Assembly: GCA_965262615.1 (NCBI GenBank)
Contig: OZ253545.1
Span: 160,001 to 224,000 of the forward strand
Origin: Alphaproteobacteria bacterium
GTDB taxonomy: Bacteria; Pseudomonadota; Alphaproteobacteria; GM7ARS4; G965262615
Length of the DNA stretch: 64,000 bases
Reading direction: 5' to 3'
In this document: positions 54,421 through 57,909 of the stretch, one piece after another
Layout of the letters: the number at the start of each line of letters is the position of its first letter
Numbering within the stretch: position 1 is the stretch's first letter
Position numbers and translations under genes: made by a program
The notes under the pieces: model-generated
The model's input: only the letters and a program-made list of their open reading frames with translations
Told to the model about the DNA's origin: nothing
The model's database searches: none

Positions 54421-54438
54421 AACGCAAAGCTGCATGCG

Positions 54439-54512
54439 CGCGCCCGGGAGGACTCGAACCCCCAACCTCCTGATCCGTAGTCAGACGCTCTATCCAATTG
54501 AACTACGGGCGC
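54439..54512 (-). tRNA. tRNA-Arg (ACG); CCA not encoded
   Basis: Reverse complement GCGCCCGTAGTTCAATTGGATAGAGCGTCTGACTACGGATCAGGAGGTTGGGGGTTCGAGTCCTCCCGGGCGCG. Confidence 0.96.
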
Positions 54513-54563
54513 AGCAAAAACACCATACAAATTATCCCACACACTCGCAAGCGTCAGATGGTT

Positions 54564-55031
54564 CTAAAAACCGAGAATGGCTTGTCCGTTCCAATCGGTT
54601 TGGAAGATGCCTCTCGCAAGAATATCACGCCCCAGTAGCACATCGTGGTCTGTTGAAAGAGTCTGATATTCAGCTACTTGAGTGCTTTCAAAGGCAGTAA
54701 GGGCATTCCCCATCGGTATAATTAGGGTAACGAAGTAAGCTCTCACCTCAGAGACACCTGTCGCCGAATTCGCAGTAATCAAGCCTGATGACTCAAGATT
54801 TAATTTTTGGGAAAGTCTTTGGCTGATATAACTGACAGAAGACCCTGTATGCACGAGACAAAAAGCCTCCTCCATCGTAAGATTTTCTTTTTTCCTATCT
54901 TGAGCACGGTCACCAATGGCAAACCCCATTGGCACATTTTCTTCAATTTCAACAGCACTCTTTCCTGTGACGACAGATACAGGAATAATCACTCCTTTTT
55001 CAGAATCAAACGAAACCCTCAGCAGTGACAT
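54564..55031 (-). CDS. Retropepsin-like aspartyl protease paralog with catalytic Asp replaced (HTG)
   Basis: CLVHTGSS where paralogs have CLIDTGA; retains VLLGRDIL. Confidence 0.8.
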   Translation of the reverse strand: MSLLRVSFDSEKGVIIPVSVVTGKSAVEIEENVPMGFAIGDRAQDRKKENLTMEEAFCLVHTGSSVSYISQRLSQKLNLESSGLITANSATGVSEVRAYFVTLIIPMGNALTAFESTQVAEYQTLSTDHDVLLGRDILARGIFQTDWNGQAILGF

Positions 55032-55036
55032 GCTGA

Positions 55037-55288
55037 TTAAGCAGGCATTGCAGGGAATGTGATGACATCAATTGGCTTTTGTCCAACTTGTTGGACGCTG
55101 TAATTATCGTCATCGTAGGTATCAAGGGCGTGTTTGTGGGCGAGGCGGGCGGTATCAAAAACGCCGATGAGTTTTTGGTCACGCAGGAGGGCATACTTGC
55201 CTTTATCTGCTTTTTTGAATTGAGCGGACATTTTTTGAAAGGCATCAAAATTCGCCTTAATCATGGTGTCTCGGTCGGTCATTGTCAT
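55037..55288 (-). CDS. Small partner protein (DUF5678-like), copy A
   Basis: NFDAF..M...KGKYALLRDQKLIG.F.T...YSVQQVG; 5 bp upstream of the protease. Confidence 0.75.
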   Translation of the reverse strand: MTMTDRDTMIKANFDAFQKMSAQFKKADKGKYALLRDQKLIGVFDTARLAHKHALDTYDDDNYSVQQVGQKPIDVITFPAMPA

Positions 55289-55519
55289 TGCATCCTCTGG
55301 GTTTGTTTGATGGGTTCATTGTGGTGTTTTTTTTGCAAGAAGTCAATATTTTTGGTGATTGGTCATTTTTTTTGTTTTCGGTTTGAGGGATGGGTGATGT
55401 CGGTGGGGTTGGTGTCAATGGCTCAGAAGTGGCGGCGGGACTGTTGGGCGATGATTCCTGCCCCGCACCAATTGCCATCACTCGCAAGCGTCAGATGGTT
55501 CTAAAAACCGAGAATGGCT

Positions 55520-55915
55520 TCAATCGGTTTGGAAGATGCCTTTCATAAGAATATCGCGCCCCAGTAGCACATCGTGACCTTTCCCTCCTCCGTATTCAGC
55601 CACTTGGGTGGATTCAAAAAAATGGAAGGAATTCCCCATTGGTATTATTAAAGTGACAAGGTAAGTTTTCATCCTCACTTTTTCTGATGCGGTCAGCATT
55701 GTTATCATCCCTGATCGCTCAAGCTTTAATTTTTCGGCAAGTCTTTCGCTGACACAGCTGATGCCAGCTCCCGTATCTATGAGACAGTTAAACTTCGGCA
55801 ACGTTTTAATGTATTTTCCTTTATCCTCAATCGCAACGGTGTTTTTACCTGTTGCAATGAACACGGGAATAGTGACCCCTTTTTGAGGGTCAAATTGAAC
55901 TTTCAGAAGAGCCAT
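55520..55915 (-). CDS. Retropepsin-like protease, C-terminally truncated by an 8-bp deletion
   Basis: LIDTGA and LLGRDIL present; GTCCGTTC missing relative to copy A gives TGA and loss of the last 9 residues. Confidence 0.8.
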   Translation of the reverse strand: MALLKVQFDPQKGVTIPVFIATGKNTVAIEDKGKYIKTLPKFNCLIDTGAGISCVSERLAEKLKLERSGMITMLTASEKVRMKTYLVTLIIPMGNSFHFFESTQVAEYGGGKGHDVLLGRDILMKGIFQTD

Positions 55916-55920
55916 ACCGA

Positions 55921-56169
55921 TTAAGCAGAAAGTGCAGGAAATGTGATGACTTCAATTGGCTCTTGTCCAATTTCTTGGAAGCTGTAGTTGTTATCTTTGA
56001 ATTTCTCAAGGGCGTGTTTGCGAGCTTCTCGGGCGGTGGCAAAAATGCCGACGAGTTTTTGATCGCGCAGAAGCGCGTATTTGCCCTTGTCTTCTTTTTT
56101 GAATTGAGAAGACATTTTTTCAAAGGCATCAAAATTTGCCAAAAGCATGGCATCTCTGTCGGTCATCAT
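55921..56169 (-). CDS. Small partner protein (DUF5678-like), copy B
   Basis: Paralog; ATGACA-N17-TACAAT ends 6 nt before the ATG. Confidence 0.75.
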   Translation of the reverse strand: MMTDRDAMLLANFDAFEKMSSQFKKEDKGKYALLRDQKLVGIFATAREARKHALEKFKDNNYSFQEIGQEPIEVITFPALSA

Positions 56170-56358
56170 GGTTTTATTGTAGTGAATTTTGGTCATTGTG
56201 TCATCCCTCATTTTTTGTGGTTTTGGTTTTTTGGATGCGATTTGAGGGATGGGTGAGGGTGGTGAGGGTGGTGTCAATGGCTCTGAAGTGGCGGCGGGAC
56301 TGTTGGGCGATGATTCCTGCCCGTACCAACTGCCATCCCTCGCAAGCGTCAGATTGTT

Positions 56359-56793
56359 TCAAAAACCGAGAATGGCTTTCCCGTTCCAATCGGTTTGGAA
56401 GATGCCTTTCATAAGAATATCGCGCCCCAGTAGCACATCGTGACTTTTCCCTCCTCCGTATTCAGCCACTTGGGTGGATTCAAAAAAATGGAAGGAATTC
56501 CCCATTGGTATTATGAAAGTGACAAGGTAAGTTTTCACCCTCACTTTTTCTGATGCGGTCAGCATTGGTATCATCCCTGATTTCTTAAGTTTTAATTTTT
56601 CGGCAAGTCTTTCGCTGACACAACTTCGAGAAGCTCCCGTATCTATGAGACAGCCAAACTTCGGCATTGTTTTGATGTCTTTCTCTCCACTTCTCACTCT
56701 ATCCTCAATTGTAGCAGTGTCTTTGCCTGTTACAACAAACACGGGAATGATGACCCCTTTTTGAGGGGCAAATTGAACTTTCAGAAGAGCCAT
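56359..56793 (-). CDS. Retropepsin-like (clan AA) aspartyl protease, intact
   Basis: LIDTGASRS catalytic motif, flap TASE, VLLGRDIL. Confidence 0.85.
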   Translation of the reverse strand: MALLKVQFAPQKGVIIPVFVVTGKDTATIEDRVRSGEKDIKTMPKFGCLIDTGASRSCVSERLAEKLKLKKSGMIPMLTASEKVRVKTYLVTFIIPMGNSFHFFESTQVAEYGGGKSHDVLLGRDILMKGIFQTDWNGKAILGF

Positions 56794-56798
56794 GCTGA

Positions 56799-57047
56799 TT
56801 AAGCAGAGATGACGCGGAACAAAGGAATCTCAAGTGGCTCGCATCCAATTTCTTGAAAGCTGTAGTTGTCATCATCGTAGGTCTCAAGGGCGTGTTTGTG
56901 GGCGAGGTGGGCGGTGGCAAAAATGCCGACGAGTTTTTGATCGCGCAGAAGCGCGTATTTTCCCTTGTCTTCTTTTTTGAATTGAGAAGACATTTTTTCA
57001 AAGGCATCAAAATTTGCCTCAATCATGGCATCTCTGTCGGTCATCAT
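56799..57047 (-). CDS. Small partner protein (DUF5678-like), copy C
   Basis: Paralog with the same promoter geometry as copy B. Confidence 0.75.
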   Translation of the reverse strand: MMTDRDAMIEANFDAFEKMSSQFKKEDKGKYALLRDQKLVGIFATAHLAHKHALETYDDDNYSFQEIGCEPLEIPLFRVISA

Positions 57048-57265
57048 GGTTTTATTGTAGTGAATTTTGGTCATTGTGTCATCCCTCATTTTTTGTGGTT
57101 TTGGTTTTTTGGATGCGGTTTTGGGCGGGGGTGAGGAAGGTGGGGTTGGTATCAATGCCGTAGATAATGTCACCCTTGCCGAAGAGTCAAAGCGTTCCAG
57201 CTTGTGATGAACGCGCCAATGGTTTATCATGTCCTCATGCCACCCTCGCCAAACACCGTATCCAT

Positions 57266-57293
57266 AAAACAAAACCCATCTCGTAGGATGGGA
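57266..57293 (-). terminator. Putative intrinsic terminator
   Basis: CCCATC-N6-GATGGG hairpin followed by TTTTGTTTT on the minus strand. Confidence 0.6.
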
Positions 57294-57298
57294 AGCTG

Positions 57299-57523
57299 CT
57301 ACACATAATCCTCAAATCGCTTCAGTGGCAACTTAAGACGCTCACACATTTTTTTAATCATTCTAGGATGCATCTGCACATGATCATCCAAAACAGGTGT
57401 CCACAGCAACACGCCATCATGACGATGCGTTAGATGCCTGATTTCAATTTCTTGAATCTCACAAGAAAACTCCTCAATGGCAATGGCTTCAAATTCTTTG
57501 TAGAGAAGCCGCCGCGGCATCAC
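57299..57523 (-). CDS. Small protein, possible divergent HicA-like toxin
   Basis: 74 aa; ATGA overlap with the HicB-like gene; C-terminal IKKMCERLKL helix; no GSH motif. Confidence 0.5.
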   Translation of the reverse strand: MMPRRLLYKEFEAIAIEEFSCEIQEIEIRHLTHRHDGVLLWTPVLDDHVQMHPRMIKKMCERLKLPLKRFEDYV

Positions 57524-57909
57524 GCCGCCACCCGATAATCAATCATATCAGAGAAGTCTTGAGATGGCGGCAAAGCAAAAGACTTCGGCAACAAAGACTT
57601 CTCTTGAGGAGCAATCTTGCTTTTAGGAATAAACTCATCCTTGATGCCCAAAGCATCCTCATACATATCCCAATACTCTTGGGGAGCTTTCTCAATGGCA
57701 TCCAATCCCTCATAGCCATACTGAGCACACAAAACCAACTCGGCATAGAGCGTCTTGACGAAATTGAGCATCACATCTTTCGCGCTATCGCCCTGCGCCG
57801 CAATATAATGCTCCAGACCGACCGCGACATAGCCCATCGTGTCCTTCACGATGACAACGCTGATTTTTCCGCTCGTAGCTTTTGTATCCACAGCAAGACT
57901 TTCACTCAT
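57520..57909 (-). CDS. HicB-like protein (divergent)
   Basis: YVAVGLEHYIAAQGDS.KDV...L and KAPQEYWDMY, matching RAEAKYW.MF in the other HicBs; GGAGG RBS. Confidence 0.7.
   Translation of the reverse strand: MSESLAVDTKATSGKISVVIVKDTMGYVAVGLEHYIAAQGDSAKDVMLNFVKTLYAELVLCAQYGYEGLDAIEKAPQEYWDMYEDALGIKDEFIPKSKIAPQEKSLLPKSFALPPSQDFSDMIDYRVAA

What the first reader, a model, noticed from the sequence alone, without database searches (positions are those of the whole stretch)
54543..57140. Triplicated small-protein + retropepsin protease module: uncharacterised TA-like two-gene system
Seen: three tandem operons, each an ~82-aa protein followed 5 bp later by a 131-155-aa clan AA aspartyl protease with no signal peptide. 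They lie between tRNA-Arg and a hicBA-like pair and are AT-richer than the flanks. The small proteins are conserved except for their C-terminal tails (QKPIDVITFPAMPA, QEPIEVITFPALSA, CEPLEIPLFRVISA). Inference: a protease toxin with a cognate inhibitor, or a protease-activated partner, where the variable hydrophobic tail acts as (pseudo)substrate or completes the dimer sheet. I know of no functional characterisation of this pair.
Basis: partly seen in the sequence, partly recalled or inferred. Interest (0 to 1): 0.78.

Follow-up and report, generated by a model that had tools for sequence, protein, structure and literature searches.

The report
Small protein plugs a retropepsin protease
Three tandem copies of an uncharacterised two-gene unit encode a small protein whose tail is predicted to sit in the active site of its retrovirus-type protease neighbour, much like a toxin with its antidote, and only one of the three proteases still looks functional.

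Summary
On the minus strand, 54564-57074, three diverged 866-929 bp units each hold a small gene (82-83 aa, or 91 aa from an upstream ATG), a 5-nt spacer and a retropepsin-like protease gene. They lie beside tRNA-Arg(ACG) in an AT-richer stretch. Two points were missed. Unit 1's protease has HTG instead of the catalytic DTG. Unit 2's protease lost its C-terminal strand through an 8-nt deletion. Only unit 3 looks intact.

The small protein is a remote DUF5678 relative from a large family (1908 representative clusters). The small-gene-then-protease order recurs in most relatives examined, usually with overlapping genes, and one fused form exists. The 1.54 Mb genome has two further pairs and one orphan small gene. 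The family was found in only 8 of 400 sampled genomes of the phylum.

A complex model (ipSAE 0.71, best control 0.01) docks the small protein's core on one flap. Its otherwise disordered tail lies in the cleft and touches both catalytic aspartates.

Best reading (about 0.45): a toxin-antitoxin-like module with a pseudosubstrate inhibitor. Toxicity, cleavage and regulation are untested. Seven full-text searches found nothing in print on this pair. The "hicBA-like" neighbour is only a weak lead.

The parts
54438..54512 (-). tRNA-Arg (anticodon ACG); boundary of the array
   Evidence: ARAGORN
54564..55031 (-). Unit 1 retropepsin-like protease, 155 aa. It has HTG in place of the catalytic DTG and extra residues (10-14 alignment columns) before the active-site strand. 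Predicted catalytically dead.
   Evidence: ORF. PF13975 scores 23.1 bits, below the 28.2 cut-off. Alignments show it is the only 1 of 26 without D[TS]G.
55037..55288 (-). Unit 1 small protein, 83 aa, tail ..VITFPAMPA. An AGAGGA sequence lies 5 nt upstream of the ATG.
55318..55346 (-). Promoter-like site upstream of the unit 1 small gene (TTGACT-17-CACAAT)
   Evidence: Consensus scan, (11 sites found, 4.6 expected). Not evidence of function.
55520..55915 (-). Unit 2 retropepsin-like protease, 131 aa. DTG is intact, but an 8-nt deletion creates a premature TGA and removes the C-terminal 9 residues (the last beta-strand).
   Evidence: The strand at residues 139-143 of the unit 3 model is.
55921..56196 (-). 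Unit 2 small protein: 82 aa from the ATG at 56169, or 91 aa from the ATG at 56196. Tail ..VITFPALSA.
56176..56204 (-). Promoter-like site (ATGACA-17-TACAAT, 10 of 12 matches) ending 7 nt before the ATG at 56169
   Evidence: consensus match only
56359..56793 (-). Unit 3 retropepsin-like protease, 144 aa. It is the only copy with both DTG (D51) and the full C-terminus.
   Evidence: PF13975 32.8 bits and PF13650 31.0 bits. Model pLDDT 87.2. Foldseek best hit 5c9f_A, E 1.9e-6.
56799..57074 (-). Unit 3 small protein: 82 aa from the ATG at 57047, or 91 aa from the ATG at 57074. Tail ..EIPLFRVISA.
   Evidence: Model pLDDT 85.6 with a low-confidence tail.
57054..57082 (-). Promoter-like site (ATGACA-17-TACAAT) ending 7 nt before the ATG at 57047
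   Evidence: consensus match only
57275..57292 (-). Terminator-like hairpin plus T-run that separates the upstream two-gene operon from unit 3
57299..57909 (-). Context only, identity not established.
   Evidence: ORFs. No Pfam, NCBIfam or PADLOC hit of note. Atlas lead of 0.88 to a 'HicB-like antitoxin' cluster.

Best explanation
Each unit is a two-gene module of toxin-antitoxin type.

The downstream gene encodes a cytoplasmic protease of the retroviral (retropepsin) type. Such enzymes work as a homodimer in which each chain supplies one catalytic aspartate.

The upstream gene encodes a small alpha-beta-beta-alpha-beta protein, a remote DUF5678 relative, which acts as the protease's cognate protein inhibitor. 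Its folded core docks on the flap and outer strands of one protease chain. Its C-terminal tail, disordered when alone, lies in the substrate cleft under the flaps and against both catalytic aspartates, as a pseudosubstrate or slow substrate. While the small protein is made, the protease is held in check. When it is lost, the protease would cut cellular proteins.

In this window the module was triplicated long ago (dS 0.16-0.9 between units). Only unit 3 keeps an apparently competent protease. Unit 1's protease is catalytically dead (HTG). Unit 2's has lost the terminal strand that retropepsins use for dimerisation. All three small genes remain intact.

Shown here: the anatomy, the family assignments, the conserved linkage, the sporadic multicopy distribution and the broken copies.
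Model-supported only: binding and the tail lying in the cleft.
Inferred: inhibition, toxicity and addiction or defence behaviour.
For: (1) Linkage in the window's own genome. 5 of 6 small-gene matches sit directly upstream of a protease match.

(2) Linkage elsewhere.
- L012 and L013: 2 of 2 evaluable loci are paired. L014 is cut by a contig end.
- Even sample of the phylum: 4 of 8 positive genomes are paired.
- Motif scan: 17 loci, of which 13 encode a family member and 12 of those have the protease downstream and overlapping.
- Same-order genomes: 4 of 4 single-domain protease hits have the small gene upstream.
- Metagenome contigs: 9 of 11 loci have it, but these are about 3 independent lineages.
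- One natural fusion, P0146, joins the small domain to the start of a retropepsin domain.

(3) Complex model with two protease chains and one small protein. ipSAE was 0.71, 0.69 and 0.71 in three runs. The best of 3 controls scored 0.01. Partner pLDDT was 86 and the runs share at least 92% of contacts. The tool's mark was reached by 116 of 157 solved complexes and 2 of 215 mismatched pairs; the tool says these counts hold only roughly for this job. Small-protein residues 69-81 touch residues 49, 51, 53-56, 58, 75-80 and 110-116 of both protease copies. The most confident contacts join the small protein's core to protease residues 70-74, 86-90 and 105-108, which is not simply a protease-peptide arrangement.

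(4) The tail has low confidence when the protein is folded alone (block means 57 and 64), while the core scores 83-95.

(5) Protease identity. Fold search gives 49 PDB matches at E<=0.001, among them APRc (best, 5c9f_A), FIV, HIV, XMRV and EIAV proteases, Ddi1 and one renin chain. The sequence profile hits the Ddi1 protease domain at 1.6e-5. D[TS]G is kept in 25 of 26 aligned sequences, and an LLG[RM]D-type motif recurs in most rows with variants (only the G is invariant).

(6) Behaviour typical of toxin-antitoxin modules.
- Small gene first, with overlap or a 5-nt spacer.
- Found in only 8 of 400 other genomes of the phylum, yet 6 small genes occur in this 1.54 Mb genome.
- Repeated breakage of the protease next to an intact small gene: units 1 and 2 here, and L031, L036, L040 and L050. 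L058 also has a frameshifted protease.
- Orphan small genes: L010, L017-L020, L034.

(7) Tail type goes with the two residues after DTGA, which the model puts in contact with the tail. ITFPAL goes with DTGAGI (unit 2, P0005/P0014, P0008/P0018). PLFRVI goes with DTGASR (unit 3, pair 4, P0003/P0012). Other protease segments partition differently.

(8) Established knowledge, recalled and not tested here: HIV-1 protease is toxic when expressed in E. coli, and replacing its catalytic Asp25 abolishes activity.
Against: - No experiment or expression data exist. No RNA run was listed.
- No DNA-binding fold was recognised in the small protein, although most type II antitoxins have one. Foldseek found no match at E<=0.001 and VIA's best Z was 4.3.
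- PADLOC gave no credible hit.
- tblastn with one protease (L013) found nothing on 72,556 plasmids and one weak match in 50,697 phage records. Mobility is therefore not shown.
- The complex model could be helped by memory of the many solved retropepsin-peptide complexes. It cannot tell an inhibitor from a substrate.
- dN/dS of 0.36-0.74 for the proteases shows only moderate constraint.
- Four orphan small genes in one genus (L017-L020) suggest the small protein can have a role without the protease.
- The tail-pocket covariation rests on 3 pairs read from DNA and 3 pairs inferred only from equal contig lengths. The two sites lie within about 200 bp of each other, so linkage could contribute.
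- Some 'broken' proteases are in metagenome-assembled genomes, where indel errors are possible.
Confidence: 0.45

Rival explanations
1. Protease and substrate. The small protein is the physiological substrate, a precursor or regulator, not an inhibitor. The protease clips its C-terminal tail, for example at the Phe-Pro or Phe-Arg bond here or the Tyr-Phe bond in the DLGYFSHA forms. This matures, activates or inactivates the small protein, much as dedicated proteases cut their cognate repressors.
For: The same complex model puts the tail in the cleft against both aspartates, which is exactly where a substrate lies. The tails are aromatic or hydrophobic. Recalled, not tested: retroviral proteases favour Phe/Tyr-Pro and hydrophobic P1/P1' residues. 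The natural fusion P0146 resembles a polyprotein that would need self-processing.
Against: The small protein has no recognisable effector or DNA-binding fold that cleavage would switch. The pattern of broken proteases beside intact small genes, and of orphan small genes, fits an antidote outliving a poison better than a substrate outliving its only processing enzyme. The large core-to-flap interface is more than a substrate needs.
Confidence: 0.2
2. Abortive-infection or stress-sensing defence module. The pair is an anti-phage system in which a phage cue removes or displaces the small protein and frees the protease to kill or arrest the cell. This is a special case of the leading reading, with a different trigger and benefit.
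For: Sporadic distribution and several copies per genome. AT-richer stretch beside a tRNA gene. Neighbouring two-gene cassette with a weak HicB-like lead. The Atlas lists one DUF5678-bearing cluster whose commonest assigned phylum is Uroviricota.
Against: No credible PADLOC hit. PHROGs hits only at E 0.009-0.2. No known defence genes were identified next to the loci examined, though flanks were not scanned systematically. The host genome is small (1.54 Mb) and its phage exposure is unknown.
Confidence: 0.12
3. Assembly factor or activator. The small protein is needed to fold, dimerise or target the protease, acting as a chaperone or adaptor rather than blocking it.
For: Strict co-orientation and translational coupling, with the protease start codon inside the small gene's last codons in most relatives. 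High-confidence docking of the core on the flap region.
Against: A tail filling the catalytic cleft and touching both aspartates would block substrates rather than help them. The protease model folds confidently on its own (pLDDT 87.2).
Confidence: 0.08
4. Decaying remnant. The array is a relic of duplicated selfish DNA with no present function in this genome.
For: Two of three proteases are disabled. Protease dN/dS among units 2, 3 and pair 4 is 0.51-0.74.
Against: All three small ORFs and the unit 3 protease are intact despite dS of 0.16-0.9. Small-gene dN/dS is 0.22-0.45. A fourth intact pair exists elsewhere in the genome. The genome is small, and small genomes are commonly assumed to lose unused DNA quickly (general knowledge, not tested here).
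Confidence: 0.08

Closest known systems
Type II toxin-antitoxin systems (general architecture)
   Same: Two small co-directional genes with the smaller one first, overlapping or a few nt apart. Patchy distribution and several paralogous copies per genome. Predicted direct protein-protein neutralisation through a C-terminal segment that is disordered on its own. Frequent decay of the putative toxin while the putative antitoxin is kept.
   Different: The putative toxin is a homodimeric aspartic protease, which I do not recall as a described TA toxin class (recalled). Seven full-text searches found nothing on this pair. No DNA-binding domain was recognised in the small protein. Toxicity and rescue are untested.
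APRc (RC1339) of Rickettsia conorii, PDB 5c9f/5c9b/5c9d
   Same: Best structural match to the unit 3 protease model (Foldseek E 1.9e-6, TM 0.62/0.67). It is a bacterial retropepsin-like enzyme that accumulates as a dimer and depends on the catalytic aspartate (abstract of PMC4140852).
   Different: APRc is membrane-embedded and located in the outer membrane, and it processes autotransporters (abstract). The window's proteins have no membrane segment by eye and come with a dedicated small partner. Sequence identity in the structural alignment is about 20%.
Pseudomonas RimB and RloA retropepsin-like peptidases
   Same: Bacterial single-domain retropepsin-like proteases encoded in small operons (abstract of PMC11957051).
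   Different: Rlo enzymes carry signal peptides. Their operon partners are a transglutaminase-like membrane protein and an ATP-grasp protein, not a DUF5678-like small protein (abstract).
Ddi1 retroviral-protease-like domain and retroviral proteases (HIV, FIV, XMRV)
   Same: Fold, a D[TS]GA active-site strand, flap, an LLGRD-type helix motif and terminal strands. The small-gene-then-protease order and the natural fusion P0146 recall the Gag-Pro layout (recalled).
   Different: No ubiquitin-like or UBA domains and no polyprotein in the window. The partner is a separate folded protein. No sign of retroelement genes nearby.
Pfam DUF5678 (PF18929)
   Same: 14 of 48 scanned relatives of the small protein hit PF18929 at E<=0.01, and 6 of 48 reach the 23.2-bit cut-off. 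The divergent fifth pair in this genome has the tail type seen in a second subgroup of the family.
   Different: The window's own small proteins score only 12.6 bits (E 0.12-0.13) or nothing. The Pfam model covers 49 residues of the core, not the N-terminal helix or the tail.
Dedicated protease/repressor pairs such as ImmA-ImmR (recalled, not tested here)
   Same: Adjacent genes in which a protease acts on the product of its neighbour. This is the model for the substrate rival.
   Different: Those proteases are metalloproteases and their partners are helix-turn-helix repressors. Neither feature is present here.

Membership tests
Retropepsin-like aspartic protease (Pfam PF13975 / PF13650, clan AA) | Score at or above the Pfam gathering cut-off | tested here: met
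   Unit 2: PF13975 34.9 bits against 28.2. Unit 3: 32.8 against 28.2, and PF13650 31.0 against 24.3. Unit 1 falls below the cut-off (23.1 and 20.3 bits).
Retropepsin-like aspartic protease (Pfam PF13975 / PF13650, clan AA) | Catalytic Asp in a D-T/S-G-A motif | tested here: met
   Units 2 and 3 have DTGA. Unit 1 has HTGS, so the feature is not met for unit 1. Of 26 aligned pair-linked proteases, 25 keep D[TS]G.
Retropepsin-like aspartic protease (Pfam PF13975 / PF13650, clan AA) | Retropepsin fold, including flap hairpin and terminal strands | tested here: met
   Unit 3 model has pLDDT 87.2 with strands at residues 3-7 and 139-143. Foldseek gives 49 PDB matches at E<=0.001, almost all retropepsins (best 5c9f_A, E 1.9e-6). 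Unit 2 lacks the last 9 residues.
Retropepsin-like aspartic protease (Pfam PF13975 / PF13650, clan AA) | Homodimer with one Asp from each chain | tested here: inconclusive
   Two copies were supplied to the complex model, and the partner's tail touches D51 of both. The protease-protease interface itself was not scored.
NCBIfam TIGR03698 clan_AA_DTGF | Score at or above the curated cut-off (57.35 bits) | tested here: not met
   23.4 and 24.4 bits for units 2 and 3, and no hit for unit 1.
DUF5678 (PF18929) | Score at or above the gathering cut-off (23.2 bits) | tested here: not met
   Window small proteins score 12.6 bits (E 0.12-0.13) or have no hit. Homology is indirect: their profile retrieves 1908 representatives, and of 48 scanned, 14 hit PF18929 at E<=0.01 and 6 reach the cut-off.
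Type II toxin-antitoxin system | Adjacent co-directional small genes, coupled or overlapping | tested here: met
   5-nt spacers in the window. In most relatives the genes overlap, with the protease ATG inside the small gene's last codons.
Type II toxin-antitoxin system | Antitoxin binds and neutralises the toxin | tested here: inconclusive
   Binding is supported by the model only (ipSAE 0.71 against 0.01 for the best control). Neutralisation cannot be tested with these tools.
Type II toxin-antitoxin system | Toxin arrests growth and the antitoxin rescues | not testable with these tools
   Needs expression experiments.
Type II toxin-antitoxin system | Antitoxin carries a DNA-binding domain and autoregulates the operon | tested here: inconclusive
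   No Pfam DNA-binding domain. No PDB sequence match. Foldseek found no match at E<=0.001. VIA's best Z was 4.3. Absence of a match does not show absence of the function.
Type II toxin-antitoxin system | Patchy, multicopy, accessory distribution | tested here: met
   8 of 400 other sampled genomes of the phylum have the small gene, against 6 copies in this 1.54 Mb genome. Same-order genomes G401 and G403 have 2 protease matches each and G402 has none.
HicAB (for the neighbouring pair 57299-57909) | HicA_toxin or HicB family profile match | tested here: not met
   No Hic-family Pfam, NCBIfam or PADLOC hit at E<=1. The Atlas gives 0.88 to a 'HicB-like antitoxin' cluster, which is below the 0.9 level and so only a lead.

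The most novel reading that the evidence does not exclude
The module may be a self-timed protease switch. The small protein's tail would be a slow substrate, so the protease gradually consumes its own inhibitor and stays silent only while the operon is expressed. Any shut-off of host gene expression, such as phage takeover or loss of the element, would let the inhibitor pool run out and release an indiscriminate retropepsin. This would be a toxin-antitoxin logic that needs no host protease.

The two recurrent tail types matched to the residues after DTGA would insulate paralogous modules from one another. The dead (HTG) and strand-less protease copies in the array might persist as dominant-negative subunits, or as decoys that buffer the one live copy.
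Probability: 0.12. Interest if true: 0.85.

Novelty: new variant of a known kind. Interest (0 to 1): 0.66.

Why it matters
If the reading holds, it adds an aspartic protease of the retroviral type to the list of bacterial toxin or effector activities. It also adds a natural protein inhibitor that plugs a retropepsin's active site with its own tail. As far as I recall, protein inhibitors of retropepsins are hardly known, and seven searches of the held literature found nothing on this pair.

It would give a function to a widespread domain of unknown function: 1908 representative clusters match the small protein's profile. The result would be a simple two-protein system for studying how retropepsin specificity co-evolves with a ligand. 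It would also explain why small-genome bacteria of this lineage carry several copies.

If the module proves ordinary, the value is smaller but real: a documented conserved gene pair, and a correction that two of the three copies are disabled.

Tried and rejected
I used a genome sample and a degenerate motif scan instead.
- The metagenome scan returned only distant relatives, 29-50% identical in the best segment. The tail-pocket covariation could therefore not be extended beyond the pairs.
- PADLOC gave only one chance-level hit (GajA, E 0.012). PHROGs gave unknown-function families at E 0.009-0.2. NCBIfam gave nothing near its cut-offs.
- For the small protein's fold, Foldseek against the PDB found no match at E<=0.001, VIA-wide gave a best Z of 4.3, and the PDB sequence profile gave a best E of 0.37. 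This is no basis to call the fold new or to name it.
- No RNA holder was listed for the locus.
- tblastn with the L013 protease found no plasmid match and one weak phage match at 29% identity. Only one query was used, so this says little.
- A synteny test for an island came to nothing. The cyaY neighbourhoods in three same-order genomes have no tRNA within the fetched 1.9-3.3 kb and no shared layout.
- Dimer-sheet completion by the tail: the complex output lists no confident contacts to protease strands 1-7 or 139-143. The tool warns that unnamed residues are only uncertain, so this is not excluded.
- Programmed frameshift fusing the two genes, as in Gag-Pro: rejected as unnecessary. The protease keeps its own conserved ATG (MPC... 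in relatives, MAL... here) and the window has a stop plus a 5-nt spacer.
- P0036, a 2026-aa surface protein with 11 matched stretches, is treated as a repeat-driven false hit.
- Seven literature searches found nothing on this pair: DUF5678; PF18929; PF13975; retropepsin + toxin-antitoxin + bacteria; retropepsin-like + antitoxin; aspartyl protease / toxin-antitoxin / gag-asp_proteas; protease toxin / antitoxin / pseudosubstrate. An eighth search was used to find the characterised bacterial retropepsins.
- Subscription journals and supplements were not searched.

Full report
WHAT IS THERE

On the minus strand between tRNA-Arg(ACG) (54438-54512) and a terminator-like hairpin (57275-57292) lie three head-to-tail units. 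Each has a small ORF, a 5-nt spacer and a protease ORF.
- Unit 1: small gene 55037-55288, protease 54564-55031 (155 aa).
- Unit 2: small gene 55921-56169, protease 55520-55915 (131 aa).
- Unit 3: small gene 56799-57047, protease 56359-56793 (144 aa).

In units 2 and 3 an upstream in-frame ATG (56196, 57074), preceded by GAGGGA, would give 91-aa products like the fourth copy elsewhere in the genome. The repeat finder reports 8 direct-repeat families with spacings of 859-929 bp. G+C is 0.41-0.48 across the array, against 0.50-0.58 in most flanking windows and 0.46 in one.

The three proteases are not equivalent.
- Unit 1 reads HTG where the catalytic DTG should be. It is the only 1 of 26 aligned pair-linked proteases without D[TS]G. 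Its nearest relative in the databases, P0017, has DTG.
- Unit 2 carries an 8-nt deletion relative to units 1 and 3 and the fourth copy. This creates a TGA and removes the last 9 residues. In the unit 3 model these include the terminal strand at residues 139-143. In retropepsins that strand forms part of the dimer interface (established knowledge of the family).
- Only unit 3 has both DTG and a full C-terminus.

The units are old paralogues, not recent copies. dS is 0.16-0.9 for the proteases and 0.31-0.75 for the small genes among the three units. dN/dS, including the fourth copy, is 0.36-0.74 for the proteases and 0.22-0.45 for the small genes. A 104-nt stretch at the 3' end of unit 1 is 91% identical to unit 3, while the rest of unit 1 is about 67-68% identical to the reference unit. 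This suggests recombination between units.

FAMILY ASSIGNMENTS

Units 2 and 3 pass the gathering cut-offs of Pfam PF13975 and PF13650. Unit 1 does not. NCBIfam TIGR03698 is hit well below its cut-off.

The unit 3 protease, folded with a 26-row alignment, gives pLDDT 87.2. Foldseek finds 49 PDB matches at E<=0.001. The best is the Rickettsia conorii retropepsin-like protease APRc (5c9f_A, E 1.9e-6), followed by FIV, XMRV, EIAV and HIV proteases and Ddi1 domains. A sequence profile hits the Ddi1 protease domain at 1.6e-5.

The small proteins have only chance-level Pfam hits (DUF5678 at E 0.12-0.13). However, a profile of them and their close relatives retrieves 1908 representative clusters at E<=0.001 from 1.84 billion proteins. 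Of 48 of these scanned, 14 hit DUF5678 at E<=0.01 and 6 reach its cut-off. They are thus remote members of a large family centred on DUF5678.

Folded alone (59-row alignment, pLDDT 85.6), the small protein has a helix (residues 4-22), two strands (31-35, 38-43), a helix (46-56) and a strand (63-66). A low-confidence tail follows from about residue 67. Neither Foldseek (no match at E<=0.001), VIA-wide (best Z 4.3) nor a PDB sequence profile names the fold.

IS THE PAIR A REAL UNIT?

- In the window's own 1.54 Mb single-contig genome there are six small-gene matches. Five sit directly upstream of a protease match. These are the three units, a fourth close pair (L003) and a fifth divergent pair (L005). 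One small gene is an orphan (L010).
- Distant pairs occur in two alphaproteobacterial MAGs, L012 and L013, with overlapping genes.
- In an even sample of 400 other genomes of the phylum, only 8 have the small gene. Four of these (L016, L021-L023) have the protease immediately downstream. The other four lack it and are all from one genus (L017-L020).
- A degenerate scan for one tail motif returned 17 loci. Thirteen encode a family member (L035 is the same place as L013). Twelve of those have the protease downstream and overlapping, and L034 has none.
- Starting from the protease, the two positive same-order genomes (G401, G403) gave four single-domain hits, and all four have the small gene upstream. 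A fifth hit in G419 is an unrelated, secreted-looking tandem form.
- Eleven metagenome loci, about three independent lineages, show the protease in nine. One is rearranged and one is cut by the contig end.
- One representative (P0146, 147 aa, probably cut short) fuses the small domain to the start of a retropepsin domain.
- Twelve of the 150 best representatives are tandem two-domain small proteins.
- In the overlapping forms the protease start codon lies inside the small gene's conserved ..SHA.. codons, and the protease starts MPC.. or MPS.. in most of these pairs.

The linkage is therefore conserved across wide divergence, but it is not obligatory.

HOW THE TWO PROTEINS ARE PREDICTED TO MEET

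I sent two copies of the unit 3 protease (alignment of 26 rows) and one small protein (alignment of 59 rows) to the controlled complex predictor. Scores were 0.71, 0.69 and 0.71. The best of three controls scored 0.01. Partner pLDDT was 86 and at least 92% of contacts were shared between runs. The tool's mark was reached by 116 of 157 solved complexes and by 2 of 215 mismatched pairs, and the tool cautions that these counts hold only roughly for this kind of job.

The small protein's core (residues 5-13, 31, 45-54, 60-66) packs on residues 70-74, 86-90 and 105-108 of one protease chain. Its tail (69-81) touches residues 49, 51 (the catalytic Asp), 53-56, 58, 75-80 and 110-116 of both chains. 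By position relative to the catalytic Asp (recalled HIV-1 protease numbering), residues 75-80 correspond to the flap. In other words, the tail lies in the substrate cleft.

The most confident contacts involve the folded core. This speaks against the result being only a memory of protease-peptide crystal structures, though that cannot be ruled out. The model cannot tell an inhibitor from a substrate.

TAILS

The tails are not random.
- Among close relatives two types recur..E[VL]ITFPALSA and ..E[IV]PLFRVIS[AS].
- Among 129 single-domain representatives, 80 carry a loose [DENQ]-hydrophobic-G-x-hydrophobic-[ST] motif and 44 the strict D[LFM]G[YFW][FYW]S. Another subgroup has a ..T-x-T-[FY]-[HY]-S-R-V.. 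tail.
- In the close subfamily the tail type goes with the two residues after DTGA. ITFPAL goes with DTGAGI in unit 2, P0005/P0014 and P0008/P0018. PLFRVI goes with DTGASR in unit 3, the fourth pair and P0003/P0012. Other protease segments partition differently.
- Only three of these pairs are read from DNA. The database pairs are inferred from equal contig lengths. The two sites are also within about 200 bp of each other. The covariation is therefore suggestive only.

MOST LIKELY MECHANISM

I commit, at about 0.45, to a toxin-antitoxin-like module. The retropepsin dimer is the harmful activity. The small protein is its cognate inhibitor, clamping a flap with its core and plugging the cleft with its tail.

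Support:
- the gene order and coupling;
- the patchy but multicopy distribution;
- the disordered-alone, ordered-in-complex tail;
- the recurring pattern of disabled proteases beside intact small genes (units 1 and 2 here; L031, L036, L040, L050; L058 is also frameshifted), together with orphan small genes (L010, L017-L020, L034).

Recalled, not tested here: HIV-1 protease is toxic in E. coli, and catalytic-Asp substitutions inactivate retropepsins.

Against:
- no recognisable DNA-binding domain;
- no defence-database hit;
- no plasmid or clear phage carriage for the one query tried;
- no expression data;
- possible assembly errors behind some 'broken' MAG genes.

Rivals are a protease-substrate or maturation pair (0.2), an abortive-infection defence variant (0.12), an assembly factor (0.08) and a decaying relic (0.08).

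COMPARISON WITH WHAT IS KNOWN

The protease is a member of the retropepsin-like clan (tests met for units 2 and 3). It differs from the characterised bacterial examples.
- APRc is membrane-embedded and sits in the outer membrane (abstract of PMC4140852).
- The Pseudomonas Rlo enzymes are secreted and have other operon partners. RimB is named in the same abstract as a homologue involved in rhizosphere colonisation (abstract of PMC11957051).

The module works like a type II toxin-antitoxin pair, but membership is unproven because toxicity, rescue and autoregulation are untested.

Seven full-text searches found nothing on a DUF5678-retropepsin pair. Of the papers cited, I read only search listings and two abstracts. 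Subscription journals and supplements were not covered.

The neighbouring two-gene cassette (57299-57909) called hicBA-like has no Hic-family profile hit and only an Atlas lead of 0.88.

VERDICT

This is a real, conserved and apparently uncharacterised two-gene module. Binding, with the tail in the active site, has good in-silico support. Its function is not shown, and two of the three copies in this window are probably disabled. I rate it a new variant of a known kind, with interest 0.66.

Noticed in passing
window 57299-57909 (-): Two overlapping ORFs (129 aa, then 74 aa), followed by a terminator-like hairpin at 57275-57292. No family hit of note. The Atlas gives a 0.88 lead to a 'HicB-like antitoxin' cluster for the 129-aa ORF. 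The 74-aa ORF looks HicA-like by eye only.
   Followed up: partly
L003 1220-1923 (+) = G000:C1:525120-525823: A fourth, intact close copy of the pair (91-aa small protein with the PLFRVISA tail; 140-aa protease with DTG). It lies far from the array, downstream of an untested 287-aa ORF (L003 87-950).
   Followed up: partly
L005 1405-2133 (-) and L010 1483-1731 (-): A fifth, divergent pair: a 90-aa small protein with a ..QTFQTRFSF.. tail and a 134-aa protease with DTGAT. There is also an orphan small gene with a DLGYFS tail and no protease match nearby.
   Followed up: partly
P0021-P0023, P0032, P0039, P0045, P0048, P0059, P0063, P0109, P0118, P0156: Twelve of the 150 best family representatives are tandem two-domain small proteins. 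One domain per protease chain would match the two-fold symmetry of the dimer. Not modelled.
   Followed up: no
P0146 (147 aa): A natural fusion of the small domain to the beginning of a retropepsin domain, probably cut by a contig end. It has weak DUF5678 and PF13975 hits.
   Followed up: partly
L012, L013, L029-L045 (small gene 3' ends): In the overlapping forms the protease ATG is nested in the small gene's ..SHA.. codons (C-ATG-C). Part of the tail's conservation may therefore come from the overlapping start and the N-terminal MPC.. of the protease.
   Followed up: partly
window 54544-54647 vs 56339-56442: The 3' end of the unit 1 protease plus the sequence downstream is 91% identical to that of unit 3. 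The rest of unit 1 is about 67-68% identical to the reference unit. This mosaic structure suggests exchange between units.
   Followed up: no
window 57054-57082 and 56176-56204 (-): Promoter-like ATGACA-17-TACAAT sites end 7 nt before the ATG at 57047 and 56169, which would give leaderless transcripts. If instead the upstream ATG (57074, 56196) is used, the site lies inside the gene.
   Followed up: no
L013 3576-3752 (-): A 58-aa ORF just upstream of the distant pair looks HicB-like by eye (..FWVEVPALPGC..). Untested.
   Followed up: no
L048 (G419): Large ORFs with two retropepsin-like DTGA domains each and a hydrophobic N-terminal stretch. This is a different, pepsin-like tandem architecture with no small partner.
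   Followed up: no
P0036 (2026 aa): A surface-protein-like sequence (DUF5979, SpaA and thioester domains) matched the small-protein profile in 11 stretches. This is probably a repeat-driven false positive.
   Followed up: partly
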